Positions 1 to 52,654 of a stretch of DNA of 64,000 nt are shown in pieces; the stretch's first letter is position 1; the number at the start of each line of letters is the position of its first letter. The stretch comes from Gnetum montanum (Eukaryota; Plantae; Gnetophyta): contig MNCI01002211.1 in assembly GCA_015680685.1 (NCBI GenBank), positions 1-64,000 on the forward strand. Reading direction: 5' to 3'. The position numbers and the translations under genes are program-made. The notes beneath the pieces were generated by a model. That model saw only the letters and a program-made list of their open reading frames with translations, had not been told where the DNA came from and did no database searches.

Positions 1-336
1 TTGTGCTCAAATGTTTTTGCAAAATTTTATTTGTTACAAGCAGGTTTTATAAGGACCGCGTAGACTAGGCAGTTGAACAAAATAGGAAATTTTCAAGAAC
101 TCACAGTACTGGACAAAGTTGGCTGAATCTCTTTAAAGTAAGTCATTTGTAGTTCACACGCAACGAAATTGTCACATTTCATACAACCGCATGCCGCAAC
201 AGCACACACACATACTCACATTAACTACTGAGTCTATTTGGAGGTATCTGGGCCTTGGTGTAGCCAGAGATCAGCAGGCACCTAAATCCTATTCGAGGAC
301 ACTCGTTGGCGGTCGAGTCCCAAACGGTCGCCAACA
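1..336 (+). mobile_element. 3' end of an LTR (family A), young CpG-rich copy truncated by the window start
   Basis: Ends ...GGTCGCCAACA at 336. Aligns with 2825-3146 and with the reverse complement of 48404-48740. Confidence 0.85.
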
Positions 337-1090
337 AGAAGTTATATGAAAGGTTCTTAATTGGTTTATGGGTATTGAATGTTTCTTCAGAAATTAGCCA
401 ATCTTCTACTAGCAACATTATTAAGAATGGTATAGGGTTTAAGATCAAAAGAAAGAATAAAACTACAACAACACAAATTGAGAAGAAGCATGGATGTAGT
501 CTTAAGAAGGCTTATGTAGGCACTGAATTAAAAAGAGAAAGGAAGGGTAGGAAACTTCTTCAAGAAGTAGTTTTGAGATTTTAGATGGTTCTGAGAGTAA
601 TAAATTTGAAAAATTTAATCCAAATTTTATGAAAAAGAGATTGAAGAAGGATAAAGGTATTTCTTCAAAAGAAGTTCACTTTCTAAGTTAAATTCTTCTA
701 TATCTAAAAGTATTGAAATAATAAAAATATGCCTTTGCCAACCAATAAAAATTTGGACAATTTTTACTATTATCAAATAGTTAGATTGAAAGAAGAAAAA
801 GATAATATGGCTACAAATATTAGAAGCTCCCATAACAATAGTGGTAGATAAAATGGATAAATTTAATGAACATATCTCTCATTGTAGAAATGATGATTAT
901 TTGTTGTCAGAAAGGATTAATAATAAATATAAAGGTTGTGAATGTGAATCTAAATTAGAAGATAGGAAGATTGGAGTAAGCAGTAAAACAAAAATACCAA
1001 AATATAGCTTGCTTAGTTTTAGTATACTAAAAAGTAAGTTACAGAAGCTAATTGTTTCTACTATGAAATTTGCAAAATTTGTAATCCGCA

Positions 1091-3146
1091 TGTCAAACAT
1101 TAAGCCAAAGATATTCTCCTAATCTTGGTTTGGACCCTATGAATTCCAAAGGCCACTATTGTTACTACTTGGTGGCATCTGGATCCTTTAACGATGCCAT
1201 CATTTGAGGGTATCATCACTGATGGTGAGGCCATCAAGTTTTGTGGAATCCTTGACATCATGGGTAGGTGTTCTATCATGCTGTAGAGGCTCTTCCTACT
1301 GTGTTTGCATCTATGTTAGCATCATCATCATCACCATTGAATATGTGCACAAGAAAACGATGAAGAAATTGAGCTACAACAAGATTATAGAGTAGATTAC
1401 AAAGGGTCTAAAAACACAGCAGCACCTGACACCAGCAGAGCTAGTATGCCCATGACTCATTATGGTTATGGCTACTCCAATGCCTTCACCATTGCACTAG
1501 CATTGTCACCATTGTCCACCTTTTTCTCCACCCATGACATCTAGAACAAAGACAAAGGGTTCCTAGAACACCAACATCACAAGAACATGCCATATGGCAT
1601 TATTAGCACCTTCCAACTTGAGGTTTATTGTGGGAAGTTTGAGGAACACACGCTTGATAAAGTGGGCACCTATCTACATGCCACCTGGTTTGATGTCATG
1701 GATAATTGGATTTGAATCAAATTTGTATAAACATTTCGATACAAAGATAACCATGAACAATGACCAATAGAGAAAAAAGAAAAAAAAAGAAAAAAATAAA
1801 GGAAATGACAATAATAAATATATGGTTTAAGAAGAAGGTAGTTTACTAGATAATTATCTAACATCCTATGTGTACTGGACACTTAGTAACAATAACTTGT
1901 ATTCCTATAGTAAAGGTAACTTCCTATAGAAGTTATAACTTCTTAAGGAAGTTATAAATTAATATCTTAGATATTTGTAATCTACCTTAACTTTTCATGA
2001 TGATTGTAACCACCCTAAAGTCACTATAAAAGGGGCTTATAGGGTAGATTTCAAAGGAGGGAGGCTTTTGAAGAAGAAGAAATTTGAAGATTATTTATAC
2101 GATGGTTTGCTAAAGACATCGTTTCAACCACTTTGTTTTAGTCGTATGAGTTCATTCTTTCCTATTTTGTTTTGTTGCTTAACTAGTAGTTTAGATAGTA
2201 TCATACTTAGTATGTAAATTTGGGGTTTTTATATTACTTTTATAGTTTTTTGTTGTATGATAGTAGACTCCTATTAAGATTTTTCATGGAAGAACTCATG
2301 TTGGAAAGCCTCAAGAGCAATTTAATAGAAAAGTTTATTATTATGCAATGTTTAAGGCTGCTATTAGAATTTTTGTAAGAGAGCCTCTACTATAGACAAG
2401 CTAGTTGAGCAATTCAATAGTTTAGAGAGTTTAAAAAATCTTTGGTATTTTGATAGAATTGAAATAGCTTTTTGATTTTTAAGTATATTCCCTTAGTATT
2501 TTAATTAGAAATTATCAAATCTTTGAAAGCTTTGTTGTATGTAATCATTGACAACTATAATTTAGCCAAAATAGAGACTCGTATGTGGTGGTTTAGGTAG
2601 CAATTTTTGGTAGTATAGTAGGATTGTCTTTAAAAAATTGCTTGTTTGAGCCTAGAAAATTTGAACAATTCATAGATATTGAATTAGGGATAACTTTATT
2701 ATGAAGTGTTTCTTCATATCAATTTACCTTGCTTAAATATTTGAGGTTTTTACACAAATCTACTTTCTTTTCTTTCTTGTGGAGCTTTCTCTCTTTGGGG
2801 GAAATTAGGAGTAGATTAGTAGAGTTATGCTTAAATGGTTTTTGCAAAATTTTATTTGTTACAAGTAGGTATTATAAGAACTGTATAGACTAAGTTGTTG
2901 AACAAAATAGAAATCTCTGATAACTCATAGTGTTTTACAAAGTTGGCCAAATCTATTTTATGATAGTTGATTATAGTTTTATATGCAACCCAACTATTTC
3001 AACATTCACAATAGCAAAAACATATTCACATTTCACTACTGAGTCTATTTGGAGGTATTTGGACCTTGGTTTTTCCAGAGACTAGCAAACACCTAAATCC
3101 TGTTCGAGGCACTCGTTGGCAATCGCATCCCAAATAGTCATCAACA
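1091..3146 (+). mobile_element. Older family-A LTR, probably solo
   Basis: Ends ...TCATCAACA at 3146. 2550-3146 matches the reverse complement of 48404-49051, and ~1875-2010 matches the reverse complement of 49723-49790. TATAAAA at 2025-2031. The 5' end is tentative (TGTCAAACATTAAGCCA resembles TGTTGGCACATTTGGCCA at 51207 minus); no clean TSD. Confidence 0.7.
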
Positions 3147-13090: not shown

Positions 13091-13109
13091 ATTCATCCTA
13101 AATGATTAT

Positions 13110-13617
13110 TGTAATGTCATGTCCCTTGTTAAGGGTGGAAACAATTGCAAATAATGTAATTAACTTTCAAATGAATGGGCACCTCATTATGAGAAGTTAT
13201 GATTATTCATGTATCCCTTGAGAAATGGTTTGACCTATGCCATTTAAGGTCGAGATTAGAGGTCGTGTTGGGCATGGAGTTGCGGAGCCAGGAGAGGCAC
13301 ATAATAGGAGCTGGATGAAGCAAGACAAGAAGGTATTGATCATCCCTTTGGTAGGATAGCCTAACCATGGTGGTAGTGCTAGATTCCTTCTAAGGCTTAA
13401 GTCACATGGGAAGATAACCCAAAGAGTGTTACAGGACTCTCTTCTATTAATATAATTTTCCTATTTTCCTTTTTTCATTCTTTAGTACCAGTTATTTATT
13501 TATTAGTTAACTCATTTATTAAATATTTATAATGTTTCTAGTATATTATCTAAGAAAGCGATGAATATGATAAATAAGCAATTACATTTTTACAACATCT
13601 AGAAACATGATGTCACA
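13110..13617 (+). repeat. 5' LTR of the chromovirus
   Basis: Colinear with 29499-29989. Confidence 0.88.
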
Positions 13618-13631
13618 TTTAGTATTGGAGC
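13618..13631 (+). promoter_or_regulatory. Degenerate PBS-Met (TTTAGTATTGGAGC vs TTTGGTATCAGAGC)
   Basis: Immediately after the LTR; three transition differences from the canonical PBS. Confidence 0.65.
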
Positions 13632-13851
13632 AAACCATGATTCAGGAACCAAAGTGGAAGAAAAACCTTATTTTATTATTATTGTTATTATAGAACACAA
13701 GTGCATTTAAGTAAAATAAAAAAATAGAAAAAAATTTTATTTTATTTTGTAACAAAAAAAAAGTGAGCAGAAGTACATCTAAGCAAGATATAGAAAAGGA
13801 AGAATAGGGGAAAGAAGCAGAATGAGAAAGATGTAAAGAAAGAAACTGTGA

Positions 13852-15840
13852 TTATTTGTTATGACCAAATGACTCTAGAATATTTATGACTATCTTTAAT
13901 TGTGATTTCCTTTCTTTAGTAGTGGCATCTATCTTACTAAGCACTACCTTGCATCTAGCTAGTTCATCACACAATTATTTGATATGCTCAGTCACACGTC
14001 TTATTGCAGCTACTAATTTCTCCTTTCTTTTAAGTTGGATCTTCAACATATCCATTTGTATTGACTAATCATCCATGTCCTTTTTCCGTTCCTTCTCCTT
14101 TCTCTGTAAAAATGAGATTTAAATTATGAGTTATGAGGAAATTAACAAAAAAAAGGGGGAAGCATTAAGAATAAAAAGAATTTTTTAAAAAAGTATTACC
14201 TGAAATCAATCATTGTCAATTTGGAGGAAGTATTCATGAGTCTCCATATAGCGAGCATAGCATGTTGCACTCCCCAACTCTTTTAAGAATTACTCTAGAT
14301 CTTTTATAGCATTTGGAGCATTCTCAGGAATTGGATGCAAAGCTGATGGAACTCCAACCTATATTAAATCATAATCTATCTTGAAGTTACATGACTAAGA
14401 CTCCCATAGATGGTAGACACCCTCATGAATAGAATAGGGTTTCTTATTAGAGATTTGCTAACTAATGCACCAAAGAAGCATGAGTTCTTCTTCAATAGCC
14501 ACCACTATCTTTCTCATCGAATAAGAAGAACTTGAGATAGAGAAAGAAGAAACCACTATAATAGACTCAAAAAATGATGTTAATGCTATTTGTGGAAGGG
14601 AACCTCTTCTAAGTGTCATAGAAAAAGAAGGCATAACTGGTGATCTTGGTGATGGAATAGGAGCTTATTCGAAAGTGGCACTTGCATCATTTCTATCCAC
14701 CTCTCAGAGAAAGTACTATTGCTCCATAGTCATCTACAACATACAAAAAATCAACATCATGCAAAGAAAAGAGGAAAGTATTCAAACCTTTAAATAACTA
14801 AAACTTACCTCTATTTTCTTTAACTTATCTTGTCTTGAACTTTCTCGAGTTTTTTGGGGTTGTTGTTGAGACTGTTGTTGGGTTTGTTGCCTTATAACTA
14901 CTAGACCGCTAGAACTTTGCCTAGTACATTACCTCTGCAAAACGAAATTTATTAAAAAAATAGATAAGACATTAAAATAAGTTAATTATATTTAAACATA
15001 TACCTTGGGAGTAGAAAGTGTGATTTTTTCTTATGGTTGAACCATACCAAAGGTAGAAGTACCTTGAACTTCTTCAACTTGTGTAGCTTCAGCACTCTAC
15101 ATCGGTTCATTCTATAACCTAGATTGCATTGTCAAATACATAAAATAAAAATAGAATCAACGAAAAAGGAAATAATAAGAACATGATAATACCTCATTGA
15201 TTTCTTCCTGATTTTGAGCATGCTGTAAAACTAGTTGACCTTTCTTAGCATCCATAATCTTACTCTTTATAACTCTCTCATCTTCGAGAAATTCAAGGAA
15301 TAACTAGGGATTGTAATAAGTAAAACATTTTTTTTGGATGGTCATAACTTAGGATCATACACTTGAACAAGGGTATGCAACATAGGATATAAGATTTGGA
15401 AGGATTTTTGTAGGCAATAGTAATTTCAATCATGGCATTATACCAGGCAGAGAAACAAGACAATGACTAGTGATAGATTCTACCAATTATGGCACCATGA
15501 AGTATGAAAATAGAATAAGAACTAAGATAGGATTTTTGTTTATACCACATAACCTTGCTACTAATAAATAGACATAAATCAAAGTGAGCTTTATTAATGA
15601 AATCTCCTTGAACAAATTGGCTTTTACCAATGGCAGAATTAGTAACATACTAAGATAATTATTTCTTACAAAAAGATTTAAATTTTGTAGAATAAGTTGA
15701 AGGAATTAAAGAATCATCTCCTTACTAAAAACCCAAGCCTACTTGAATATTAAGAAGAAGGATTGTTATTGTTCCAAAAACTAAATGGGAAGTAGAACTT
15801 GTCTTACTATTGTACTATTCACACCATTCCATAAGAACGT
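13852..15840 (-). pseudogene. Five-exon decayed accessory gene antisense to the chromovirus (possible Transposase_32-like N-terminal domain, low-complexity middle, coiled-coil C-terminus); 5' end truncated
   Basis: Four U-rich GT-AG introns: 15192-15119 (74 nt), 15003-14935 (69), 14808-14734 (75, GAG|GTAAGT) and 14199-14104 (96). Exons read e.g. QHAQNQEEINE / EATQVEEVQGTST / RQQTQQQSQQQPQKTRESSRQDKLKKIE / APIPSPRSPVMPS / RKEKERKKDMDD*SIQMDMLKIQLKRKEKL...ESFGHNK*. Confidence 0.75.
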
Positions 15841-16831
15841 TGTTGCAATGAGAGAGTTTAAAAATAGGGAAAATAAGTAAATCAGTTAACCTAGGAGAGG
15901 TTAGGTACTGGAAACCTTCCTTCCCAAGTGATGAGTAGCTAGGTACCTCTACGCCCAACCATACGAATCATAGGCGTTCACATGCGACTTGGTTGAATTT
16001 CATAGACTGTAAGCACTTAACATACACCAAACCCTAACTAGCAAAACCTTGGGTTAGAACAGTCGTTGTCTTCCTAATCTCACTTTTGATGTTCTATTTG
16101 TGATGGTTAAGTGAGATTAAGGCTAATGATTTTTATAGCTTTTTACTTTATCTTTTGGCATCTAATTAAAGTATGGAAAGTATGGAATGAACTATTATCT
16201 AATCTATGATTATCCTAATTTGTATTCTAACTATTCCTAGCATAAGTATTTGATCCCATCTTTTGAGCATGTTTTGAGCATCCCCTAAACACTACTGGGT
16301 TACCAGACATTAAGCATCACTAGGGTACCAAGTGTTGGGGTTTACGTTCGAGATGGTTGTACTTATGGCCTTTACGAACTATAAAGGAGTGACAATGATT
16401 AAAATAACAATAATAGAAACTTAAGTAATTATCAAAGCATAAACATATTAAACTATTGAATGCATTAAATGGCTAAGTCCAAATGCTGCAAGGAATTCTC
16501 AAAGAGTTCACCTTTATTACTGTCACGCTAATGGGCTCAGATACATCAATGCTCGAATAAAGAGCCAGTCACTTTTTTTACACCTACTGCGGGCACTTGG
16601 AAAATATTCTATCTCCTGCGGGAACAAACTGCAAGAGCTTGGCTACAATTGAAAAAAGGTATGTAAATGAGGCAGAAGGCCCTCTTATTTATAGGTTGAA
16701 ATAGGCTCCATGTAAATGGGGCCACATCAACGCATGGAAGGTTGTGTTGATAGGGTCATGTTAATGGGGCTACGTCAACACGGCCGCGTATAGGTGGCCT
16801 TGTCGACGCATTGACTAATGACACTTCATCA
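15841..16831 (-). repeat. 3' LTR of the Athila-like element
   Basis: Minus strand TGATG...GCAACA, preceded by the PPT-like GTGGAGGTA. TATA (CCTATAAATA) at ~16686-16695. No partner LTR in the window. Confidence 0.6.
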
Positions 16832-16976
16832 TACCTCCACGACTAAGTAAAAACTCATCCTCGAGTTACTCTACAATTTGGAAGGTATGGGATTTTATTT
16901 ACAATGCACATGACTTGACACACACATGACACAACATCAATTTTACCAAGTGCCTGAATTATAGAGAAGGAAAAGT

Positions 16977-19922
16977 TACAAAATGGTGGTGTTCAGAGAC
17001 AAAATTGAACACCTTGCCGATCATGGAGTCTCTATCGTGAAGAAGGATGCAAAAATTATCAGCAAAGATCACACTGTCCTTAGGAGCAGTGGTTCTAATG
17101 GACCTTCACCAATCACTGGCCCATGCAATGGCGGTGGCATGAATGATGGTTGTACCACAACAGCTGCAACTTGTGGAGTCTACCAGAAAGCCTCCAAGAG
17201 AGCCCTCATTTTTTCCTCTTTGCTTCTAGGATCATTCACTTTCCAGGTAGCTTTACCGATGTGTGCTGGAACTGGAACCTCCCAAGGGCATGGCAGTGTT
17301 GGGAAGAGTTCTTTCAGGTTGACAAACTAGGCTGCGAACTACTTTCGTTTGATGTCGAATGCTCGAATTGATGCATGCAGCTGCTAGTAGTCATTCATCC
17401 GATGATCCAAGTTCTCCGCGACTACACGTTGTCCTTCAAAGCTCATGTGGAGGACCTCGAGTTCCACGTTAGCTATTTCCAATTTCTACTTCATCACTTT
17501 GTGTGCTTGGAACTCACCCTTCTATAAAGAGTACGAGGCAGCCACTTGCTTTTCCAATTCTGACCATGGTCTCCCAGCTGTGAGCATAGCCAGGTTTGCA
17601 TAGCGTAGGTTGGCAAGCTCCATATATTCTGTCATCTCCTCAATCTGTAGCTCCTTGAGGTGGATTTTAGCCTAATTATATACATTCAACCTATCAAAGA
17701 TAGCTTGCCATACTTTGCCTCCTTCTTAGAGCTGCTAGAGCAGTTGGTTTAGCTTGTCCTTTGTGACTTGAATCTATTTTTCATTTACTTCCTTCTGTAA
17801 TCCCACTTGGTCCCTATAATGATTTTTGATGTTTTCAAATTTTAGGGTCTCATTCTTCCAAGCAACGATTTCAATTGCAGATTTCTATCGTAACACCCGA
17901 GCCTCCTCCATTGACAGATTTCGGTTCTCAGTAGCCAAACTTCTTACGTCAGCATTCACCCTAGCTAGTTCGTCTTGCTATTGGTGGATAAAATTTTTCA
18001 TGTGTTCATTTTCTGCACCAACATTGCGCAGGCGATGAACCTCTGCAATCAACCTAATGTTCTCCTAGCGAACCTCTGCTAAGTCCTTTTCTAAATGATA
18101 TGACTGAGCATCTGCCAAGGCCTTATCAAAGATCACCGACTCTCGCTCATCCTCAACTATTTGAAGTTTAGTCTGAAGTTGTTGAAAAGATTCATCTCTA
18201 GTGAGCTCACGGTTGAGAAGAGTTGGATCAGCAAGTTGGGCTCTTAACTGGCTGACTTCCGTTGTCAAACATTGACAAGTGGCTTGAGTAACTTTAAGTT
18301 ACCCTTCCAAAATAAGGCTCTTACCCCTTGCCGATAGCAGCTCTGACTAGGTTGCAGTGATGTTATCTGGAAGATCAAAGACATCCAGAAGCAGTTTCCC
18401 AGCTCCTACCAGTCGATCCAATAGTTCTTTGTGTTGGGCTACATCAATCCTGCTACGTGAAGTTCCGGTAGATGCTTGTACATCTTAAAGTCAATGAATG
18501 TCTAGTATAGGTGCTGCTAGTGCATTGAGAGTTGTAGCAATTGTATCAACAACCACTTCGGCTACAATCTCCTATCCTTGTTGCTACATCACCAAGACTG
18601 TTTCCCCTTCACCATCTTCCAAGAGTACCGAAAAGGTAGCAACATTTCTAGAAATTTCTGGAAATAACTGTTGTGTGGATACTATCACCTCTCGGACACT
18701 AGGATCTGTTCGTGCAGGCACTTGCATTTAGGCTACAGAGAACATCAACCTTGCTCTTTCAAGCAAGCTAACTGATTAAGCCACTTGCTCCAGGTGGCTC
18801 ATTGCAGGGCGATAGACCAAAGGGTCTTCTCCTCCACCAGTCTTGCCAGATTGCTCTTGCTAGCTCAAGAGCATTTTTCGAATTTTGTGAATGTGTTCTG
18901 CAATGGTTTGCGAACCTGACCTTGTTGTTTGTGTAGCTAGTGGAGGTGGTTGCTTCTCCTCCTCTATCTGTGTGGTGGCAGGAGTTTTATCCTTCATCAT
19001 TTCCCACCAAGAGGCAATCGAGGCATGCTAGATTATATCATTGGAGTACCATGCTATCCTTTCCCATTTGCACAACTTCTAGATTAGGCAGGGAAAGGGG
19101 AGAGCCCATCTTCCACATTCGCTTTCAGCAAACCTCTTTTCAATATCCAAGAATAATAGTTGTGGAAGACTCATTGGGAATTTCCCACTCAAGGCAACAC
19201 ACACACAAGTGGAGAAGGCTATGATTTTGCTAGGTCTTACTGTTGGGTTTAAATGGTAAGATGTGATCTTTGAGTACACCTTCTTCACCATGGTCAAAGA
19301 GACGAATCCTTTGCGTTCTACTCCATAGCACCATTTGGTCCATTCCACTTTTACCTCTGGGTTGGCTTGTTTTGGAATCTCCACCACATCTGCTCCAGTC
19401 TCGAGCAACCCCAGAGCCTGCACTATTGCCTCTGAAGAGTAAGAGACATAAATGTCTTTGATTCTTACTCTGGACCCTGGTTGCCAATTCATCTAGAAGA
19501 GATAGGTCTCTCCTAACTACCATTCACCACTAGTTGTGATGATTGGCCACATCAGAGAGTTTTGTAGTTGAAGCCTCACATCTTCTAGAGCATTCTCAAG
19601 GAATGGTCCAAAGTTTAGCTCTTGGAGAACCATCTGTTGCACTTCGTGCGGCTTGATAGCATCAAGATAGGCCTAGGTCAGGGTGACCTCAAGCCGTGGT
19701 GCTATCCAAAGAGTCTCATCCCCTTGCAATTGCTCGCTGGGAATCTCCTCTTCGGGAATCTGATGGACAGATTCCACATTAGGTCCTTCATAGAGGGGGC
19801 CAGTTACATGAGAGCCCTCTACGTGCTCTAGCTATTGCATGCCTCATCCCCTTTTGGTGTGGGTGCTTGTCCCTCGATTGTGATGGTCCTTCACTCCTTG
19901 GATGCCTCGAATTGGGTGCCAT
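16977..19922 (-). pseudogene. Athila-type extra ORF (ORF2/'env-like'; Transposase_32-like domain plus long coiled coil), ~980 codons, decayed
   Basis: Starts MAPNSRHPRSEGPSQ. WQPGSRVRIKDIYVSYSSEAIVQALGL...LPFPCLI (19079-19492) resembles the VRGxxVxFSxxxIxxxLGL/LPFPxLI motifs. Heptad-rich EVSQLRAQLAD...LQTKLQIVEDERE. Confidence 0.7.
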
Positions 19923-20348
19923 CTGCAATCAAACATAACCACCCATTAGACCGTGCATAAGTAGCTCAAGATGGTCCTTATACACCTTCTCAGTTTGACT
20001 AAGTTATGTTGTTGGCATGGGCATTCCATTAAGTCTCCCGGAGTGTTAATTCATGGGTTAGAGGCACAAACAATAAGGGATGAGTTGAAGTTTAAATAGT
20101 TGTTTTTGTTTCTTCCCTTAGAGGTGCGAAGTCTTAATTAACTATCTGATTAATTAATTAATTAATTACACATAGGCTTCACCCCCCTCCAAGACTAAGA
20201 GCATACCTCCAGTTGCTTAAAAGGGCAAAGATCGATTGATGCGAACGTGCGATAGAACGTAGGTGTTGAGGAAAGAGTTAGGTAGAAAAAATTGCAAAAA
20301 CTCCCCCTAATTTGGATTCCAAATGATGAAAAATGTGAAGTGCAATGA

Positions 20349-20362
20349 CCCTATATATAGGG
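20349..20362 (-). promoter_or_regulatory. Putative internal TATA box for the extra ORF (palindrome CCCTATATATAGGG)
   Basis: Upstream of a leader exon, a GAG|GTATGC donor (20206) and a TTGCAG|ATG acceptor (19923). Confidence 0.55.
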
Positions 20363-21999
20363 ATTGGACACTACATCGATGGGACTGAGTATATGTGACC
20401 GCGTATACGTAGGGGTGTGCACACGTTGACCAACATTGACCAACATCAAATTGGGGCGGTTGAAGCACGTGAGAGGCCCGGTCATGGCTAACGATAGGAG
20501 GAAGGTAATCAGAGCTCGAAAAAGAGTCAAAAATAGGAGAATGTGATGCAAAAGAACTCTGCAGGGAAGAAATCGAGCGATGGGACCCTGAAAATAATGA
20601 ACCACGAAATCCAAAGGATGGGAGACTTAACAAGCGGGACCAAGAATATGCAGGTGGGTCCTCCCCATAGTAGGCAATGGCCTTAGTAGACCCTGTATAT
20701 TGTCAACATTGAGGCCCATGGGCCTCAAGGCCAAGAAATGGTATTCGCGAGCTAATACTCCTACCCAAGAGATCCCTCCAAGGCATGAAAAGCCCATGGA
20801 AACCACGGTGAACTTTTGCAACATAAGATGGGTAGTGAGGTGAGTTACGGAGAGAAATGGGTGAAGAGAGAGACCAGAAAATGGAAATTCTGATCGTTGG
20901 TCACATAAGATCCCATGTGCAATTGTGATTAAATGACCCAGTAGAACCTTTCCTAAGTTCAGACCCAAAACCATCCACATATAGTGACATCGAAGCAACA
21001 AACGAAGCCCTAGCCATCCCCCAAGGAGGTAGGAATGCACCCACAGAGAACCACCACTCCAACAAACGTGAGAGGAAGGAAGTAAAATGGGACAAAGTTA
21101 GAGGGGATGAAGGAAGTCCCATAACTAGTTCTTATGGCCCGTGAGAGGCAATCTAAGGGGTGTGTTTTGAATTCCCACATAGTGAGGTCATGACTTTTTT
21201 TTTGTGGGAACCACACCATGCAAAGACCCATGCGTGTTCGCATGCATTAGACCAAGGGGTGTGTTTGAATCCTCATGTTTGTTTGTTTTTTTTTCTTTTT
21301 ATTTTTCTATTTTTTTCGGTGAGGACCACACTATGCAAGGTCGAATTACCCAAGAGTTTCCTTGGAGAGAAGAACGTGGAGTGGTAGGAAATCCGTAAGG
21401 ACACACCAGCAACCCAAGGGATAGGAGAGAGTGACGAATGTTACATTTCCCTTGAAGCCAAACCTGATTCAAACCATTGGGTCATCCCTGAGTCTGGGAA
21501 CTACACAAGTCACACATTAATTACAATGTTTTTAAGTGAAGGTGTTGCATGTTCTCAATAGAAGAAAAACCATGGAGTGGGTGAATGGATGGATGACATG
21601 GACTCACTGCTGATTTTATGAGCTGAAAATAGATGTAAAGTCCAAAGACAACCATGCGAGTGCGAGAGCTAGATAACTAGGTGGACTATTGTACATTATC
21701 ATTCGCAAAGAAAAACATCTGCGTTAGACACCTGATGATAATAAGATGACGTATTAGTGATCATGTGAAAAATGAAACACACAAAGAAACGAAAAATAAT
21801 TAAAGAAAGGAAAAAATTAACAAGAATTAGCAAACATATGAACGATGTTGAAAAAAAAAGTGTAAAACAAAAAAGTGTAAAAATAGTGAGGGTGTAGTGG
21901 AATGGATTAGCAGGGATGAAGGTCTCCCCCACAACTGGGTGGAAAGGAGGAGATGCGAAAAATGAAGCAAGGCTTTCCTAGTGATGATGGGGCGGTATC

Positions 22000-24596
22000 A
22001 CTGGTTGAGTGGAGTTCATAGAAAGGTTTTAGTTGTTGGCGGTTGACTAACTACGTTCTGGTGGGGTCCTCAGGTTTGTGGATAAGCAAGGCCCTGGATG
22101 GGAAGGTTTCAGAGACAATGTAAGGTCCCTCTCACAATGTTTGAAACTTGGTTGATTGAGATACATGTGAGGGGTTCCAATACGACACCTTGTCTTCACA
22201 TCTAAATGTGACCTTTCGAATCCTAAGATCATGTCATTTTTTGTTGTAGGCTTTGTGGATCTCATTTGAAGATAGGGCCACTAATCGGTTCTCATCTAGC
22301 ACACTTAAATTGATAAGTCATTCACGTTGTGCTAGTGGGAGGTCAAGGCCTAAGTCAGTAGCAGTGGATAGTGTGCGAAGTTTGGCCTAAATTGAAAGTG
22401 TTGGTAACTTTCCATACACTAACTCATAGGGAGAGTACCCTACAGGGAGTTTCCAAGTGGAGCGATAGGCCCATAGGGCATCGTTAAGTTTGGTACTCCA
22501 ATCCCTCCTATATTTGCTAATGGTTTAGGTAAGGATCTTGGTGATCTCCTTATTGGTGACTTCGACCTGCCCGTTGGCTTGGGGGTGATAGGGTGTTGTA
22601 AATTTATGGGTGACCCCCAAGTGTTGCATGAGTTTTCGAAAAGTGACACCCATGAAATGAGTCCCATTATCTAAAATGAGTACATGTGGCACTCCAAACC
22701 TATTGATGATTTTTTTTTGGACAAATCATGTGGCGGTGTTGGAAGAACAGTTGATGATGGTTGCCACTTTTGCCCACTTTGTAAAGTAGTCCACAGCTAC
22801 GATGATTTATGCCTTTTCATTTGACAGGGGAGTGATGGATCCACTATTGAGGTCCCTCCATCCATGCTGTCATCCCACCATCTTTTTGGCATCGTTCGCA
22901 GGAGCAGGCAAACCATTGTGCATCCTTGAAAATTATGGGCCTATAATACCCTGCAAGTAGGATCTTAATGGCTGTGTGACATCTAGCATACTGGCCCCCA
23001 CAAGGACCCTCGTGAGCATCTTGGAGGATGTGCAGTGTATTGTCATAAGGGACACACCATCGAACCAAGCCATCTACGCACACCTTATAAAGGTGGCTGT
23101 TGATTTCCGTAAAATGCTTGGCCTTATGGAGAAACTATTGTTTCTACGGATGGTTCCACTCCTTTGGAAACTCTTGGGTTGTGAGGTAGGTGAGGATGTG
23201 ATTGAACCAAGGGGATTCCTTGGGCATTTGCAGATTGACTACACTTGCGAAGAGGAGTTCATCTGGAAATTGGTCGGAGAGGGGCTCCTCCTCTTCTACG
23301 TCATCCCATCGTAATCGAGAAAAGTGGTCAACCACCACATTCTCAGTCCCCTTCCGATCTACCATGGTGAGATCAAACTCCTAAAGGATCACCAGCCACC
23401 GAATGATGCAGGGGCTCACAGTTGGTTTGTTCATCAGGAACTGAATAGCACTATGCTCAGTATGCATGAACACCTTGTATCTGAGCACATAGTGTCAAAA
23501 TTTTTCCAAGGTGAACACCACTATCATTAACTCGTTTTCGGTGGTGATGTAGTTAAGCTAAGCACCCACAGTGCTACAGCTTGCATAGTGGATATAGTAT
23601 GGACGTTTTTGATCATCACACTTTGTAAGCATGGCTCCCAAGGCATAATTAGATGCATCCATCATGATGTGGAAGGGCCTAGACCAATCAGGTGCCCGTA
23701 GAACTAGAGTTTCTATGAGTCTATTTAAGCAATTGGAATGCAGATTCACATTCCTTGGTCTAGATGGATGAAGCATCCTTCTTTGTAAGTTCTACCAATG
23801 GCTTGGTGATCTTCGAGAAGTTTTCAATGAAGCGCCAGTAGTAACCAGTGTGGCCAAGGAATGACCAAACATCTTTTACGATGCTTAGTTGGTGGGTGAT
23901 TCCTTGGATGATCCTGATCTTTTCAGGATCCACACTAATCCCTGTCTATGAGATGCGATGCCCTAGCATAATTCCTTCTTGGACCATCAAATGGCTTTTC
24001 TACCAATTGAGCCACAGATTAGTGTCTACACACCTTTTCAGAACTTGCTTAAGATGGTCCAAGGCTTGCTCGAACGTGGCCCCATAGGTAGAGAAGTCAT
24101 CCATGAAGACTTCTACCCCATTGCCAATCTATTGCTGGAAGATGCTGAGGATAAGGCATTGGAACGTGGTAGGCGCATTACATAGGCCAAAAGGCATCTT
24201 CTTGTATGCAAAAGTCCCCCATGGACTTGTGAAAGTTATTTTGGCTTGGTCCTCTAGTGCTATTTGGATTTGATTATAACCACTATAACCATTCAAAAAG
24301 TTGTAATAGCGGTGCCCTGCAATGGTGTTCAGCACCTGGTCCAAAAATGGGAGCGAGAAGTGATCCTTGAAGGTAGCCATGTTGAGCAAGCAGAAATCAA
24401 TACAGATCCTCCATTTGTTACCTTTCTTTGGCACAATAACAAGTGGGCTAACCCATTCGCTATCGACAATAGAATAGATGAACCTTGCCTTTAGCAACTG
24501 CTCGATTTCATCTTTGACGACCTACTTCAGTGTGGGGTTCAATCGTCTTTGTGGCTATCATCGTGGCTTTATGGAGGGGTCAATATAGATCTGATG
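22000..24596 (-). pseudogene. pol: Ty3 pol (RT-RNase H-integrase), Athila-like
   Basis: DSEWVSPLVIVPKKGNKWRICIDF, KDHFSLPFLDQ, GYSGYNQIQIA, PFGLCNAP, APDWSRPFHIMMDASNYALGA, DRKGTENVVVDH, HEGPCGG...CERCQ. Confidence 0.92.
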
Positions 24597-27500
24597 TTGG
24601 AAAACCTAAGGATCAACTCCAATTAACTCAGGATATGACCATGCAAATGCAACATTCCATTTGTTCACCACCTTTAGCAACTTTTTCTTCTATTTCAGAG
24701 CAACGGTGGCATTGATAATTACCAGCTTTCCATTTTGCAAAAATGCATATTCCAAGTGAGCCGGGCCATAGAAGCAAAGGATTCTCAACATACCTAATTT
24801 CTTCAACTTACTGATGTTCAGAACCCAAAGAATAAATTGGAGAGAAATGAAAGCCCGAGTTAATGATCAGATAAATGCCCTTGAAGATCAAATTAATGAG
24901 ATTAGGGATGTTTAAGAAGAACTTTGTCACTCAAACTAAGGGTTCAAGACAAAGATGCAAAATATGTCTGAGGAAATTAGGAAATTGTCCCATAATTTAG
25001 AGAATAAATGATCATACATGCAAGGAAAGATGGATTCCTTTACAGACTCTATCAAACAATTAACTGACCATCTCATTCAGCCTTCAAATTCTACCCATGG
25101 TCTACCTAGGGAACAACATCAAGATTGAGATCAAGTTCCCCTATGGATCCACACCAAATACAGCTCCCACCTGCTAATGAATAGGATACCAAAATCCCTC
25201 TTGTAGGCCATAGAATTGAAACTGAAGGTGAGGGATATGGGAACTGGCTTAATTCACCTAGAGAATTGTTGATACAAGTTCATGCTAAGAAAGTAAAATT
25301 AGATCATTATGATGGAGCCCTTGGATCTAGTGTTAAGGCAAAGGATTGGCTTGATACAATGATAAATTACTTCGATATGTTGAATTTTTCAAGCCATGAA
25401 TGTTTAGAAGTTATCTTCTTGTATTTAAGAGGACTTGTAGAAACAAGGTGGAATGGACTAAGATCTCAAGGTCTGATTACAAAATAGCTTAGTTTTTGTC
25501 AATATTTTGAACAAAAATTTGTTCCCGATCCTTTCCTCAAAGAGCACAAAATGAAATTTGATTCTTTAAGATTGGAAAGGTGATCTGTAGATGATTACTA
25601 CAAGAAATTCTGTGATCTTTTTCGGTATGTAAGTTATAGAGATGAGGGAGAATTAGCTTCAAAATTCATTAGATGACTACATGCTCAATTGTGTTCCTAA
25701 ACACAAGCCCATAATCCTTAAACCATTGATGAAGCATATAGAATTGCTAAGGATTCTAAGGAATCAAATTAGATATGAGATACCCTTCGATAAGAAACTC
25801 TTCAACAAACTACCTTTCCACAAGCAATGGTAGAGGAGACACCAATGAAAAAATATTGTTTAAGATTAGGATGTTTTATTTGTGGTGAAGATCATTATAA
25901 ATGAGACTACCTGAAATTTCAAGCAAAAATAAAAAGGACTAACCAAATTAGAAATAAAAAACGCAACCCAAACATGAACAAAGGAAAAATTCTAGCCACC
26001 ACCATAGTCATGAAAAGGGTATATGCATCAACTAAATTAGGTTTGTGTAAATTTCAATTTGCTTTATTGATTTTTGAAGGTTTAGTTAAAGGTAAAAAAA
26101 TTAAATTTTTGGTTAATAGTGGTGCTAATGATAACTTTACTTCTTCAAAGTTAATCAATTTATTGAAATTAAGTTTACCTTCTAAGAAAATTATTAAGAT
26201 AAAATTGGCAGATGGAACGATTATGAGTAAGCATACCAGGTATGAAGAAATTATCTTTACCTTGCAAAACATGAGTTTCATGAATAAATAATTTGAATTT
26301 GAACTAGGTGATGTTGATGCAATTTTAAGAATGTCATTCCTGCAAAAATTTGATATTACTACCCACTTTGGAACTTGTATTTTAAAAGTCCCAACCACTA
26401 ACAGAGTCAGGGTTTTAAGTGGCGTAAGAACAATAAAGAAAATTCATATGATAACTATTAAGCAAGCTAAAAGATTAGTGAAAAAAGGTGCTATGATGTT
26501 GGTTGTCAAAGTAACCCAACATTAGAGATCTTTAGGTATTGAGATCCCGAAAGAACTTAAGGAATATAAAGATTTAGTATTTGGTGAAACTAGAGAACTA
26601 ATTTCAAAATGAATTGTCAAGCATGCCATTGATATTTTTCCTGATACACAACCTATTTCAAAAGTCCCTTATAGATTTTCTACTTTTGAATTATGAGAAT
26701 TAAAAGTACAATTAAACCAATTATTATAGGAAGGGAAAATTCGACTACCTTGGGGTGTATTAGTATTATTCATTAAAAAGAAAGATGATACGCTAAGATT
26801 ATGCATTGATTATAGAGCATTGAATAAAGTGGTGATTAAAACTACTTATCCCTTGCCTAGGATCAATGATTTTTTTGATCAACTTACAGGTGCATGTTAT
26901 TTCTCAAAGATTGATTTAAAATTAGGTTATCACCAAATAAGGATTAAGGAGAAAGATATTGAGGAAAATTCTTTTAGAAGTAGGTATGGGTTATATGATT
27001 TTTTTTATGTTGTTTAGATTATCTAATGCACCTACAACATCCATAGCATTAATGAATAATATTTTTCATGATATCTTGATCAATTTGTTATAGTATTTAT
27101 GGATGATATACTTGTTTATTTTAAGTCAAGAGAAGAACATGTAAAACATTTGAAAATTACAATGGAAATTCTTAAAAAGCATAAGCTAAAAGCTAAATTG
27201 AGTAGATGTGAACTCTTTAAGGTAGAAGTTTTATACCTAGGTCATATAGTTTCTAAGAAAATATTTCAAGTAGATCTAGCAAAAATTAGTGCGAGCCGAG
27301 ACTAGCCTGAATTAAAAGATGTTACAACAGTTTGCAAATTCTTAGGTTTAGCCAATTTTTATTGACATTTCATTAAAGATTATTCTACCTTGGTAGCCCC
27401 AGTGACTAACCTTTTGAAGGAGAAATGTATGTTCAAGTTTGATAAAAAATGCAAGGAATCTTTTCTTAGATTAAATATGCTACTTACAAAAACACCTATT

Positions 27501-29290
27501 TTGAGAATTTCGAATGAAGAATTACCATTTGAAGTATCCACAAATGCCTGTGGAATAGAAATTGGTGCAATTCTTTCACAAGAAGAAAAAGTGGTATGTT
27601 ATGAATCTTGTAAATTATGAGGACCTGAGGTAAATTACTTAACCCATGATTTAGAATTACTAGTAATTGTTTATGCTTTGAAAGTTTGGAGACATTATCT
27701 TTGTGGAAAAAGGTTTGTACTAAAAATAGATCATAAAAGTTTAGAATATTTGCAGAAACAACCTATTTTGAATACTTGTTAAAGGTGATGGATAGAATTA
27801 TTGGTTGAATATGATTTTGAAATCAAATATATTCCCAGTAAGAAAAATGTGGTAGCCAATGCCTTTAGTTGAATGTGGACCTTAATGATAGGTGTGGTAA
27901 TGATGCCTATGAAAGAAGAAATTGAGGAGAAAATAAAAGAATACCCTTATTTTAAAAATATTTTAACCAATATTTCCTATGAGCCTTAATATCAACTTAC
28001 CTCTAATGATTTATTGATGAAAGGACAAAGAATGTGCATATTAGAAGGAAATTGGAGACTAAGGTTGTTCTATGAAGCACATGAAGGTTATATTCAGATC
28101 TATATGATGATTCACAAATCTTATTTTTGGCCTAGAATGAAGAATGATGTGTCCTCATACATTAAAAATTGTTCAACATGCCAAAGAATAAAAGCTAAAT
28201 AGAGGAAACCCAGTGGATTATTACAACCTATGGAAGTCCCAACCTAGAAATGGGAAGATATCACTATGGATTTCATTGTGGGATTACCAATAACCAAAAA
28301 GGGAAATGATTCAATTTTTGTAGTGGTTGATTGTCTATCAAAGATAACACATTTTAGAACTTTGAAATCTACAAACACAGTAGAAGAAGTAGCCCAAAAA
28401 ATTTTACATGAAGTATTTTGATTTCATGGTTGTCCAAAATCTATCACTTCGGACAGAGATCCTAAGTTCATATCTAAATTCTAGAAAAAATTTCTTTAGA
28501 GAGCTTCGAACCCAATTGAAATTTAGCACAGCTTATCACCCTAAGACTGATGGGAAAATTGAATGTGTGAATAGAATATTAAAAGATATCCTACAAAGCT
28601 ATGTTGGAAGTAGACCAAAAACATGGGAGAATTATTTGCACTTGGCAAAATTTTCCTATAATAACAATTATCAAGGTTCTATACATCAAACACCATTCGA
28701 AGTAATATATGGATGTAATTTCCATACAACATTAACTTTGTTAGATCCAACCTTAAGAATGGAATGGAAGGAAGAAGAAATGAAAATAATAGAAAACATA
28801 ATCACAAGAGTCAAAAAAAATTTACAAGTTGCCCAAGATAAATATAAAGGATATGCAGATCAACATCGACTAAAAAAAGAATTCCAAGAAGGAGATCAAG
28901 TATTACTGAGAGTAAAACCTACCAAAGTTTGTCTTAAACTAGGAAAATATACTAAATTAGCACCTATATTTTGTGGACCTTTTGAAATCTCTGAAAGAAT
29001 TGGTGAAGTAGCATATTAGTTGAACCTTTCAATAACCTTAAAAATTCATCTAGTTTTTCATGTGAGCTTGCTAAAGAAATTTCATGAAAATGATGTAACA
29101 TATGTGTTGGATAGACATACTTTGCCATTATGATCCAATGCTAGCTTTGAAGTTAGACCCATTGCTATTAAGAACCAACAAACTAAGAAATTATGAAATA
29201 AAACTATCAACGAAGTACTTGTTCAATGGCCAAATTGTGATCAACAAACTTTGAAAAATAGGGAGTTTATTTTAAATACCTATCCTTAAC
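24597..29290 (+). pseudogene. gag-pol: Chromovirus gag-PR-RT-RH-INT-chromodomain, many stops and frameshifts
   Basis: CFICGEDH knuckle, FLVNSGANDNF protease, [64 protein letters not shown], and the EVLVQW chromodomain (~29150-29290). Confidence 0.92.
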
Positions 29291-29485
29291 TTTTTGAGCA
29301 TCATGATATTGAATGATAAATTGTATTTATCATGGATGTAATAAATTATGTTTTATAATTTCTGATCTTCTATTTGTATAGATGATAATGAGGAAAATAA
29401 AAGAACTGAAGTTGAGGAGCAAATAATGAAGCAGCAGTTGAGCAGCTTGGCATAGAGGAAGCACTCGAGGATGAGCTAAATGCCT

Positions 29486-29498
29486 AAAGGGGGTAGAT
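29486..29498 (+). promoter_or_regulatory. Polypurine tract AAAGGGGGTAGAT
   Basis: Directly before the 3' LTR. Confidence 0.8.
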
Positions 29499-29989
29499 TG
29501 TAATGTCCCATCCCTTATTAAGGGTGGAGAAAATTGTAAACAATATAATTAATCTTCAAATGAAGGAGCGCCTCATTATGAAGAGTTATGATTATTCATG
29601 TATCCCTTGGGAAAGGGTTCGACCAATGCCATTTAAGGCTAGGATTAGAGGTCATGCTAGGTATGGAGTTGCGGAGCTGGAAGAGGCAAGTAACAGGAGT
29701 CAGGTGAAGTTGAACAAGAAGGGACTAATCACCCCTTTGGTAGGATAGCCTAACCGTGATACCAGCAGATTTCCCCTAAGGTTGAAGTGGCATGGGAAGA
29801 TAACCCATAGGGTGTTATAGTACTCTCTTCTATTAATATAATTTTTCTATTTTCCTCTTTTCATTCTTCAGTACCAATTAATTTATTTATTAAATATTTA
29901 TAATGTTTCCAGTATATTATCTAAGAAAACAATGAATGTGATAAATTAAGCGATCATATTTTTACGATAGCTGGGAATGGGATGTCACA
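29499..29989 (+). repeat. 3' LTR of the chromovirus
   Basis: TGTAATGTCC...GATGTCACA; colinear with 13110-13617. Confidence 0.9.
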
Positions 29990-46569: not shown

Positions 46570-48403
46570 GAATATGACATGGCTATGCAGGAGTAGATTT
46601 TCTCCCTCCTGGCCCTCATAGGACCTCATGGTGATATCAAGTGACGCATTAATTCTCATTGCCTAGACCTTGAGCCTACAACCTATGTCGAATACATAGC
46701 ATTTGTAGAGGCACCAGTAGACTAGCCTAACCATCTAGTCAAAGCTCTCAATCTAGAGGCAAGGGGCGTTACAAAGGATCCCCTTGTTAAGATCCCTATG
46801 ACAACACCTAATAGTGAGGCAAAAACACTAAAGCTAAGATCCTTGCTAGAGCCCCAACATGTCCAAGACATCACTAAGGTACTTAATGATAACATCAAGG
46901 AATTTGCATGGTCATATGAGGACATGCTAGGCCTAGACCATCTAGCACAATATCATTTTCAATCCCTGCATTAAACTAGTAAAACAGAAAGCATGCAAGG
47001 TTAGACCTAAGGTGGTGTTGGTAGTTCGTGATGAAATCACCAAGCTTTATAATGCTGGTTTCATCTGGGCTATTAACTATGTACATTCAATCTTCAACAT
47101 CATAGTTGTACCTAAGAAAAATGGAAGTATACACATTTGCATAGACTTTCAAGATCTAAATAATGTGACCATCAAAGATGACTTCCCATTGCCCAATATT
47201 TGATCAGTTAATTGATACCACATCTAGGCATGCCTTGTTGTTTTTCATGGATGGGTTATTGAGCTACAACCAGATTAGGATCAACCCTGAGCACCAACTT
47301 AGTATAACCTTCACGACCCCATGGGGTATGTTTTGATATACCATAATGCCTTTTAGACTCAAGAATGTAGGAGCAACGTATCAATGCATAATGACATATA
47401 TCTTTAGTGATTACATGCTAAGCTTTCTCAATGACTACATTGATGACATCATAGTTAAGTCCAAAGTGGCTCAAAATCATGCAATGATCTAGACTTAGTG
47501 CTCAAACATTGCTTAAAACACGATCTTAGGTTAAACCCCAAGAAGTTTGTTTTCAGCATCAAGACAGGTTGGATGCTCAACTTTGTAGTCTCTAAAGCAG
47601 GAATACGCATAAACCCTAACAAAGTTAAGGTCATAGCCAACTTAGCACCATTGGCCAACCTTAAGGAGCTATGAAGGTTGTAAGGTAGGTTGTAATTCAT
47701 ATGTAGGTTTATTGCCTGGTTAACTGACAAGTTATAGCCAATGCAATATCTACTCAAGAAAGGAGCCCACTTCGAGTGGATGGATCAATGCCAACAAGCA
47801 TTTGACAACCTTAAGCAAGAGCTGGCACAACTACCTACGGTTCACTGTCTACAAAGACATAAACCTTTTTACATCTACCTTGCTACTTCTGACATGTCCA
47901 TCACTTCTTTGCTTTGCAAAAATCAAGATGATGGCACAGAGGTCTCGGTTTACTACTTGAGATATGTGCATTAGTAGCCCATGAAGTGAAATATAATGAT
48001 GTGAAAAACCATTGCCTCACCTTAGTCTTCTTCCTAAAAAAGTGGAGGCATTACCTCTTTTGCAATCAGGTCAACATCAATTGCAAAAATAACATACTCT
48101 AAACGATCACAATGAACATCTACGAAAGTAGTTGCATTTTGTGATGGAAAGTAATAATAGTGAAGTTTAACATATACTACACTGCACAAGCCTCAACAAA
48201 AGATCAAGCTATAGCCTCACAACTCACAGCTTCAATTGTAAATGATAAAGGAACCATAGATCCAAAATTTTTGGACAAGCATGTTAACAACATTAGTCAA
48301 GTGCCCGATAATTATGAGGCACTCCTATATTTTGATGGATCTTCAACCTCCTAAGAGGATAGCGGCACTTTCATTATCATGTTTCCCTTTGGGAAGATAT
48401 GAT
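46570..48403 (+). pseudogene. pol: Tat RT-RNase H and start of the archaeal-type RNase H
   Basis: FAWSYEDM, NIIVVPKKNGSIHICIDFQDLN, KDDFPLPNI, KPFYIYLATSD, LYFDGSS. Confidence 0.92.
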
Positions 48404-49051
48404 TGTTGGTGACCGTTTGGGACGCGACCGCCAACGAGTGTCCTCGAACAGGATTTAGGTGCCTGCTGGTCTCTAGCAACACCAAGGCCCAGATACCTCC
48501 AAATAAACTCAGTAGTTAATGTGAGTATGTGTCTGTGCTGTTGCGGCATGCGGTTGTGAGAAATGTAACGATTGTGTTGTGTGTAAACTACAAATGACTT
48601 ACTTTAAAGAGATTCAGCCAACTTTGCCAAGTACTGTGAATTGTTGAAAATTTCCTATTTTGTTCAACTGCCTAGTCTACATGGTCCTTATAATACCTAC
48701 TTGTAACAAATAAAATTTTGTAAAAACATTTGAACACGACTTCGCAATCTACTCCTAATTTTCCCCAGAGAAAGAGATAGTTCCACAAGAAAACTAGAAA
48801 TAGAGCAAGATTCGATGGAAATAAGCAGAAAAGAAAAGAAAGTAGATTTGTGTAGACCTCAAATATTTAAACAAGGTAAAATGACACGAGTAAACACTTC
48901 GCAATAAAGCTATCCCAAATTCAATATCTACGAATTGTTCAAACTTCCAAGGCTCAAACAAGCAATTTCTTCAAGACAATCCTACTATGCTACCAAAAAT
49001 TACTGCGCAAACTACCACGTACGAGACTCCATTTTGACTAGATAATAGATG

Positions 49052-52030: not shown

Positions 52031-52084
52031 CATGCAACACAACACATCAATGAAATGAGGTAAGCAAGTGTCTGCTAAAACATT

Positions 52085-52515: not shown

Positions 52516-52654
52516 CAATTAGCCATCCATAATTATACAAGTGAGCAATCGAGAATAACTCTAACTCTCTAACTTCCCCCTCCCCATCCCCCACTCTTTC
52601 TACATCATGATTGTAGTCTCAAAATGGAGCACCTAGAACTGACACAACATTGGT

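What the first reader, a model, noticed from the sequence alone, without database searches (positions are those of the whole stretch)
13852..15840. Five-exon antisense gene inside the 5' leader of a chromovirus
Seen: starting 220 bp after the PBS, with no TE terminus in between, is a minus-strand gene with four canonical 69-96-nt plant introns. Exons 3 and 4 are 126 and 534 nt (frame-preserving), exon 2 is 115 nt (one frameshift), and a U-rich 3' UTR points at the 5' LTR. The six-frame track misses it. Known: extra ORFs occur in plant Ty3 elements, but they are generally described as single ORFs. Inference: antisense orientation lets introns survive retrotransposition, since the genomic RNA is the other strand, so the element may carry a true spliced accessory gene (compare HTLV-1 hbz). 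Exon 1 (WNGVNSTIVRQVLLP..GTITILLLNIQVGLG) loosely echoes the Athila ORF2 domain. Caveat: its 5' end was lost at the Athila insertion/deletion.
Basis: partly seen in the sequence, partly recalled or inferred. Interest (0 to 1): 0.8.

Follow-up and report, generated by a model that had tools for sequence, protein, structure and literature searches.

The report
Spliced backwards gene in plant retrotransposon
A decayed plant jumping gene carries, backwards and just inside its front end, a multi-copy gene with four well-formed introns that is predicted to encode a plant-mobile-domain-like protein and would plausibly help the element resist silencing; backward extra genes are known, but this spliced, front-end version is an undescribed variant in the papers searched.

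Summary
Four GT..AG, T-rich introns lie on the minus strand, and a filter of my own finds exactly these four in the 64 kb window. The gene ends 220 bp from the primer-binding site of an LTR-bounded Ty3 element with a near-perfect target duplication. It is multicopy in four DNA runs, at 0.44-0.63 of the depth of the element's gag and 1-2% of the depth of the nested Athila-like LTR. Its stop density matches pol (19 of 575 vs 12 of 416 codons). Its only Pfam match is a weak plant mobile domain (E 0.009, below cut-off), not Athila ORF2. Splicing is not shown: three RNA runs gave sparse reads and no listed junction. No single contig links LTR and gene in another copy. Known parallels: antisense 5' extra ORFs in 12% of Tekay elements, PMD-coiled-coil ORFs of Tat/Ogre, fungal brtn. 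This scan noted spliced antisense retrotransposon genes before on other DNA, mostly fungal, those whose position is given lying at the 3' end. Verdict: new variant of a known kind.

The parts
13110..13617 (+). 5' LTR of the host Ty3 element (TG...CA, 508 bp); left flank ATTAT at 13105-13109
   Evidence: loose ends with a purine tract before 13108 in 33 contigs of run X3
13620..13631 (+). degenerate primer-binding site, tRNA-Met-like (canonical form recalled)
   Evidence: sequence
13632..13851 (-). T-rich 3' trailer of the antisense gene (putative 3' UTR)
   Evidence: 49% T on the minus strand; covered by variant contigs of other copies
13852..14103 (-). exon 5, charged helical tail predicted to be a coiled coil, ends in TAA
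   Evidence: 65% hydrophobic at a/d in the best of 7 registers
14104..14199 (-). intron 4, 96 nt; other copies lack about 35 nt inside it
14200..14733 (-). exon 4, 178 codons, Ser/Pro-rich first half, no family match
14734..14808 (-). intron 3, 75 nt
14809..14934 (-). exon 3, 42 codons, Gln/Ser-rich linker
14935..15003 (-). intron 2, 69 nt
15004..15118 (-). exon 2, 115 nt from the first AG or 108 nt (15111-15004, in frame) from the second AG
15119..15192 (-). intron 1, 74 nt (81 nt to the second acceptor at 15112)
15193..15928 (-). exon 1, cut at its 5' end by the Athila-like insertion; weak plant-mobile-domain match in its first 110 residues; frame break near 15330
   Evidence: table 4
15929..24780 (-). 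nested Athila-like element: LTR end at 15929, ORF2 with Transposase_32 match and long helical tail, integrase, RNase H, RT; 5' half missing (right border approximate)
   Evidence: depth step and 219-347 loose ends of low agreement at 15929 in 4 of 4 runs
24790..29310 (+). decayed gag-protease-RT-RNase H-integrase of the host element
   Evidence: Pfam; best RT-RH hits 43-51% identical, plant names where named
29487..29496 (+). polypurine tract
   Evidence: sequence
29499..29989 (+). 3' LTR; right flank ATGAT (4 of 5 match to the left flank); K2P distance to the 5' LTR 0.20

Best explanation
This is a decayed, multicopy gene of at least five exons lying antisense between the primer-binding site and gag of a plant Ty3 retrotransposon, likely carried by the family as an accessory gene, and predicted to encode a plant-mobile-domain-like protein with a coiled-coil tail that would act in the nucleus to shield the element from host silencing. 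How it would work: the genomic RNA is read from the 5' LTR on the plus strand, so the minus-strand splice sites are invisible to the spliceosome and the introns are copied into each new insertion (inferred). A promoter between this gene and gag, head to head and lost here with the Athila insertion and deletion, would make a separate spliced mRNA ending just short of the PBS (inferred). Odds by step: real intron-containing gene 0.95; regular part of this retrotransposon family 0.8; PMD/DUF1985-like first domain 0.7; anti-silencing role about 0.35.
For: Intron set far above shuffles. One insertion: LTR pair, 4 of 5 target duplication, and one degenerate repeat family on both flanks (D13, 10, 22). 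Multicopy: up to 86 distinct contigs carry another letter at single places of the gene in run X1, introns included; mean summed depth over the gene is 0.44-0.63 of the gag bin, 0.25-0.42 of the LTR bin, but 0.013-0.019 of the Athila LTR bin in 4 of 4 runs under three organism labels (depth is only a rough guide). Variant contigs tile from just behind the PBS into exon 5: a letter at 13703 with up to 59 nt on either side, one 297-nt contig over 13738-14034 with 48 other letters, and a contig joining 13664 to 13769. Introns are kept in other copies; 5 of the 7 length differences listed inside the gene fall in introns, which are 15% of it (p 0.001; only 12 of 35 rows shown, T-runs slip easily, three rows may be one event). 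Stops: 19 of 575 codons against 12 of 416 in pol (Fisher p 0.85); exons 2-5 have 13 stops against 25 +/- 5 in shuffles (p 0.003), so the frame was likely open when this copy inserted. PMD was the only Pfam family hit by exon 1; adding the 30 upstream codons extended the match colinearly from profile position 32 to 8-9 and improved E from 0.11 to 0.017 and 0.0089; none of 24 other ORFs and 12 six-frame controls hit PMD. PMD plus coiled-coil extra ORFs are published for Tat elements (PMC4408406, section 6). [quoted passage not shown]
Against: No splice junction was listed in 3 RNA runs (59, 44 and 406 reads laid from about 26%, 26% and 2% of the runs; depth in the gene body at most 4; most X13 reads are poly-A artefacts). 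No contig spans LTR to exon in one piece, and nothing shows what joins the gene to gag in an uninterrupted copy. The PMD score (15.7 bits) is far below the curated cut-off (34.9), two shorter pieces and the downstream piece of exon 1 gave no hit (3 of 5 queries), and 4 of 24 unrelated ORFs had only chance-level Pfam hits at E 0.035-0.093. No homologous protein was found, and the single-sequence model is useless (pLDDT 38). An open frame at insertion does not prove selection for the element's benefit. The plus strand of the leader holds 39 ATG and 4 AATAAA, so how gag is translated past it is unexplained.
Confidence: 0.62

Rival explanations
1. Passenger relic: a PMD- or VANC-like gene of a Mutator-type DNA transposon (or a host gene piece) landed backwards in the leader of one ancestral element and was amplified with it during a burst, without serving the retrotransposon.
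For: PMD genes occur in MULEs and as host genes (PMC5418596, passages); introns point to an origin as DNA, not as a retro-copy; no expression seen; no relatives outside this plant group.
Against: No terminal repeat or target duplication between PBS and the gene's end; the gene ends cleanly 220 bp from the PBS; stop load equals that of pol, so it was not already decayed; length changes avoid exons. This origin is compatible with the best explanation; only the lack of function is the rival.
Confidence: 0.2
2. The gene is a family-borne spliced accessory gene, but the protein is not PMD-like or serves another step (RNA export, integration targeting), or the antisense RNA itself is the regulator.
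For: PMD match is below cut-off; the review of such genes proposes nuclear accessory roles or double-stranded RNA regulation and reports no settled function (PMC7264820, parts 1-2 of 3 read).
Against: The match grew when the predicted upstream codons were added, and PMD is the domain already known from retrotransposon extra ORFs; a maintained 580-codon frame argues for a protein.
Confidence: 0.12
3. The gene belongs to the nested Athila-like element (same strand) or is a single-copy host gene caught between two unrelated LTRs.
For: It lies on the Athila strand and abuts it.
Against: The Athila terminus at 15929 has diverse flanks in 219-347 contigs and 50-75 times the gene's depth, and it cuts exon 1 in mid-frame. 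The gene is multicopy. The LTR pair has a near-perfect target duplication.
Confidence: 0.04
4. The introns are chance T-rich stretches and there is no gene.
For: All four introns can be read as multiples of three; no junction read.
Against: Shuffles never gave more than 1; introns contain in-frame stops and 51-55% T; exon frames are depleted of stops.
Confidence: 0.02

Closest known systems
PMD-coiled-coil extra ORFs of Tat/Ogre retrotransposons (PMC4408406 section 6; PMC6317226 Additional file 4: PMD in 434 elements, all Ogre, 431 antisense 3')
   Same: Extra gene inside a plant Ty3 element; predicted PMD-like front, linker, coiled-coil tail; antisense.
   Different: Host here lacks the extra RNase H of Tat and looks like a chromovirus; the gene is 5' of gag and antisense (published: 3' antisense or 5' sense); four introns; PMD score below cut-off.
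Antisense 5' extra ORFs of Tekay chromoviruses (eORF-5'R in 12% of 782 elements; PMC6317226 Additional file 5)
   Same: Same position and orientation in a chromovirus-type element.
   Different: Those were called as single ORFs of 250 codons or more with getorf and no domain is listed for them; here the gene is spliced. Exon 1 alone is at least 245 codons, so some listed ORFs could be exons of such genes (inference).
brtn of Boty/BcGypsy1 in Botrytis (Zhao et al. 2011; seen only as cited in PMC7264820, PMC8365987, PMC4227169; that it is multi-exon is recalled)
   Same: Antisense accessory gene inside a Ty3 chromovirus-type element.
   Different: Fungal, between pol and the 3' LTR; no sequence comparison was made.
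ORF0 of Retrosat2/RIRE3/RIRE8 (PMC3485330, passages)
   Same: Extra ORF between 5' LTR and gag-pol in a plant Ty3 family, fast evolving, function unknown.
   Different: Grass-specific; the words intron and antisense do not occur in that paper; no PMD reported in the passages seen.
VANC of VANDAL transposons and host PMD-C proteins MAIN/MAIL1/MAIL2 (10.1101/2024.09.27.615353; PMC5418596)
   Same: Proposed working model: a PMD/DUF1985-type chromatin protein that counters silencing.
   Different: Those are DNA-transposon or host genes with tested functions; here both fold and function are predictions.

Membership tests
Plant Ty3 chromovirus (host element) | LTR pair TG...CA with 5-bp target duplication, tRNA PBS and PPT | tested here: met
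   target duplication 4 of 5, PBS degenerate
Plant Ty3 chromovirus (host element) | gag-PR-RT-RH-INT order | tested here: met
Plant Ty3 chromovirus (host element) | chromodomain after integrase | tested here: inconclusive
   no Chromo hit at E up to 10; the decayed tail looks chromodomain-like by eye (motif recalled)
Tekay clade | RT/RH/INT groups with Tekay references in a tree | not testable with these tools
   no labelled reference set; best hits at most 51% identical and not labelled by clade
Tekay eORF-5'R | antisense, between PBS and gag | tested here: met
Tekay eORF-5'R | single uninterrupted ORF of 250 codons or more | tested here: not met
   five exons; exon 1 is 245 codons and truncated
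PMD (PF10536) proteins | score above Pfam cut-off 34.9 bits | tested here: not met
   best 15.7 bits, E 0.0089, profile 8-84 of 347, on a decayed copy
PMD (PF10536) proteins | PMD/DUF1985 fold | tested here: inconclusive
   single-sequence model pLDDT 38; no fold search run on it
Tat/Ogre PMD-coiled-coil extra ORF | host element in the Tat clade with an additional RNase H | tested here: not met
   no RVT_3 or RNase_H hit in the three frames of the host pol, while another element of the window has one
Tat/Ogre PMD-coiled-coil extra ORF | C-terminal coiled coil | tested here: inconclusive
   crude heptad count only
brtn-type antisense gene | [quoted passage not shown] | tested here: not met
   lies 5' of gag
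brtn-type antisense gene | transcribed and spliced | tested here: inconclusive
   sparse reads, no junction listed in 3 runs
Nested MULE/CACTA/Helitron relic | own termini and target duplication around the gene | tested here: inconclusive
   none between PBS and stop (no loose-end pile among the 6 rows shown for X3); the other side is lost

The most novel reading that the evidence does not exclude
A plant chromovirus lineage took up an intron-containing PMD/VANC-type gene as DNA, kept it backwards in its leader so that the introns survive copying, and uses it as its own anti-silencing factor; such genes are widespread in plant retrotransposons but missed because surveys look only for long single ORFs.
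Probability: 0.3. Interest if true: 0.72.

Novelty: new variant of a known kind. Interest (0 to 1): 0.5.

Why it matters
Plant LTR retrotransposons are described as generally lacking introns (PMC12786077, passage), and the main survey of their extra genes called only single ORFs of 250 codons or more (PMC6317226). A 2020 review asks for exactly this search for antisense, spliced transcripts (PMC7264820). If the reading holds, the accessory gene content of plant retrotransposons is undercounted, the plant mobile domain reached chromoviruses as well as Tat/Ogre, and the open proposal that transposon-borne PMD proteins counter silencing gains a retrotransposon test case. It also bears on whether PMD moved from hosts to elements or the reverse, since intron positions can be compared with host and MULE genes.

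Tried and rejected
No whole genome is held, so copies could not be collected. Protein searches found no relative: exon 1 among longer proteins (127 candidates, 0 hits) and near-length proteins (10 candidates, 0 hits); the full-library HMMER search of one frame through the whole gene gave 1 hit, a repetitive singleton that matches the translated intron 2, rejected as spurious. That query held exon 1 mostly in the wrong frame, so the true exon-1 frame had only the less sensitive word searches. Metagenome scans: 0 of 130 candidate stretches for exon 1; 3 short integrase loci of 70 candidates, too short to reach a leader. PDB sequence search: urate oxidases at E 0.011, treated as chance. AlphaFold single sequence: pLDDT 38, not searched further. 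The protein atlas could not be used for this stop-containing frame. No RNA holder was listed by the run index. Exon 1 against the window's Athila ORF2: no similarity. No second copy or other PMD gene in the window. Over-represented 8-mers in the element: nothing beyond 5-8 copies, no candidate binding motif. Of 25 listed differences in exons, 14/3/8 fall on codon positions 1/2/3 and 2 in stop codons: a small, selected sample, not used. Joints from 21883 or 15925 to about 13711-13733 are read as A-rich artefacts. Literature: 10 searches showed no paper describing a multi-intron antisense gene 5' of gag in a plant element; subscription papers are not searched, Steinbauerova 2011 is not held, Zhao 2011 was seen only as a citation, and two large supplements of PMC6317226 (element table, FASTA) and all bioRxiv supplements could not be read and may bear on novelty.

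Full report
Observation. The minus strand between 13852 and 15928 holds four GT..AG introns of 74, 69, 75 and 96 nt with 51-55% T, separating exons of 115 (or 108), 126, 534 and 252 nt and a first exon of at least 736 nt. A filter built after seeing them finds these 4 and nothing else on either strand of the 64 kb window, and 600 shuffles never gave more than 1. No ORF of 100 residues overlaps the region, which is why a six-frame view misses it. The best frame is depleted of stops: 13 in exons 2-5 against 25 +/- 5 in shuffles, and 6 in 200 codons of exon 1 against 10 and 23 in the other frames. Its exon-2 frameshift disappears if a second AG seven bases on is the acceptor (untested). The clear frame break of this copy is in exon 1 near 15330, where other copies differ in length.

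Setting. The gene lies inside one retrotransposon insertion: LTRs at 13110-13617 and 29499-29989, flanks ATTAT and ATGAT, a degenerate PBS at 13620, a purine tract before the 3' LTR, and the same degenerate repeat family on both flanks. The LTRs differ by K2P 0.20, so the copy is old. Gag, protease, RT, RNase H and integrase follow on the plus strand from about 24790. The best RT-RH hits are 43-51% identical and plant-named where named. A chromodomain was not detected by Pfam, so 'chromovirus' rests on overall likeness and a recalled motif. An Athila-like element occupies 15929 to about 24780 on the minus strand. Its terminus at 15929 shows as a depth step and 219-347 loose ends of low agreement in 4 of 4 DNA runs. 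It cuts exon 1 in mid-frame, and its own 5' half is missing together with the antisense gene's start and promoter.

Does the gene belong to the family? No assembly is held, so I laid short contigs of four DNA runs under three organism labels and one again at finer scale. The gene is multicopy: up to 86 distinct contigs carry another letter at single places in run X1, while long single contigs have depth of about 4-14. Mean depth over the gene is 0.44-0.63 of the gag bin and 0.25-0.42 of the LTR bin, but 0.013-0.019 of the Athila LTR bin. The tool warns that summed depth is no copy number, so I use it only as an order of magnitude. It rules out a single-copy host gene and membership of the Athila element. 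Variant contigs tile from just behind the PBS through the trailer into exon 5, but no single contig spans LTR to exon. Introns are kept: no joint that removes one is among the 15 of 1056 and 15 of 62 rows shown. Of 7 length differences listed in the gene, 5 are in introns and 2 at this copy's frame break (12 of 35 rows shown). Stop density equals that of pol (19 of 575 against 12 of 416 codons), so gene and pol likely decayed together from an open state.

Expression. Three RNA runs of the same species label gave 59, 44 and 406 laid reads, nearly all under 95% alike and only partly fitting. Depth in the gene body was at most 4 and no junction was listed (about 26%, 26% and 2% of the runs were read). 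Splicing is therefore predicted from sequence, not shown.

The protein. No relative was found. The only Pfam match of exon 1 is the plant mobile domain: E 0.11 at first, then 0.017 and 0.0089 when the 30 codons up to the Athila junction were added, which extended the match colinearly towards the profile's start. It stays far below the curated cut-off, 3 of the 5 pieces gave no hit, and unrelated ORFs reach E 0.035-0.093 with random families (4 of 24); none of 36 control translations hit PMD. Exons 2-4 read as a polar linker and an unassigned part, and exon 5 as a probable coiled coil. The layout matches the PMD-coiled-coil extra ORFs of Tat elements (PMC4408406, section 6 read). There is no similarity to the window's Athila ORF2. 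The AlphaFold model was unusable.

Mechanism. Shown: gene structure, position, orientation, multicopy state, intron retention in DNA copies. Inferred: the genomic RNA is the plus strand, so these introns escape splicing during copying; a lost promoter between the gene and gag drove a separate spliced mRNA; the gene first entered as DNA, most likely from a MULE-type transposon or a host PMD gene (PMC5418596, passages). Predicted: the protein acts on chromatin against silencing, by analogy with PMD-C proteins, which oppose Polycomb, and with VANC, whose DUF1985 domain they resemble (10.1101/2024.09.27.615353, abstract and passages). I give 0.62 to the accessory-gene reading with a PMD-like protein, and about 0.35 to anti-silencing as its role. 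Unexplained: the plus-strand leader holds 39 ATG and 4 AATAAA, so gag expression must bypass it.

Comparison with what is known. Antisense ORFs upstream of gag are tabulated for 12% of Tekay elements, and PMD hits only for Ogre (PMC6317226: passages, section 9 and two supplements read). That survey called single ORFs of 250 codons or more. Antisense 3' ORFs are reviewed in PMC7264820 (parts 1-2 of 3 read), which lists Botrytis brtn and calls for a search for spliced antisense transcripts. PMC11963269, PMC4093653 and PMC3485330 (passages) do not contain the word intron. Ten searches showed no description of a multi-intron antisense gene 5' of gag in a plant element, with the limits given under Tried and rejected. 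Earlier notes of this scan report spliced antisense genes in other retrotransposons, mostly fungal, and between pol and the 3' end where a position is given (unchecked); none matched this sequence.

Verdict. A real feature and a new variant of a known kind: each ingredient has a precedent, and the combination (plant, chromovirus-like host, 5' antisense, four introns, PMD-like) has none that I found. The copy is old and broken, and splicing, selection and fold remain untested. Interest 0.5.

Noticed in passing
window 15929-24780: Very high-copy Athila-like element nested in the leader; ORF2 with a Transposase_32 match (E 2e-6) followed by a long helical tail; its gag and 5' LTR are missing.
   Followed up: partly
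window 14104-15192: With the second acceptor all four introns (81, 69, 75, 96 nt) are multiples of three and phase 0, so the exons share one frame even unspliced; the introns hold stops. Unexplained, may be chance.
   Followed up: partly
window 13355-13395: Loose ends in 237 DNA contigs and in RNA reads mark a sister LTR family that shares part of this LTR and is weakly transcribed.
   Followed up: no
window 13618-15928, plus strand: The leader holds 39 ATG, 4 AATAAA and two donor-like sites (13763, 15584); how gag is expressed past it is open.
   Followed up: partly
window 14149-14191: Other copies lack about 35 nt inside intron 4 with both splice sites left outside the gap.
   Followed up: no
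window 52621-52955: Array of 71-72-nt repeats downstream of an integrase, reading as a 24-residue repeat on the minus strand; no Pfam match.
   Followed up: partly
window 59445-63081 and 46718-52515: Two further decayed Ty3 elements in opposite orientation; the first has an RVT_3-type extra RNase H at 61346-61792, as in Tat elements.
   Followed up: partly
window 49052-49521: Assembly gap of 470 N; the ORFs listed over it are artefacts.
   Followed up: yes
window 3-337 and 48403-48737: 335-nt inverted pair, 92% alike, with a third diverged copy near 2552-3146; probably LTR pieces of another family.
   Followed up: no
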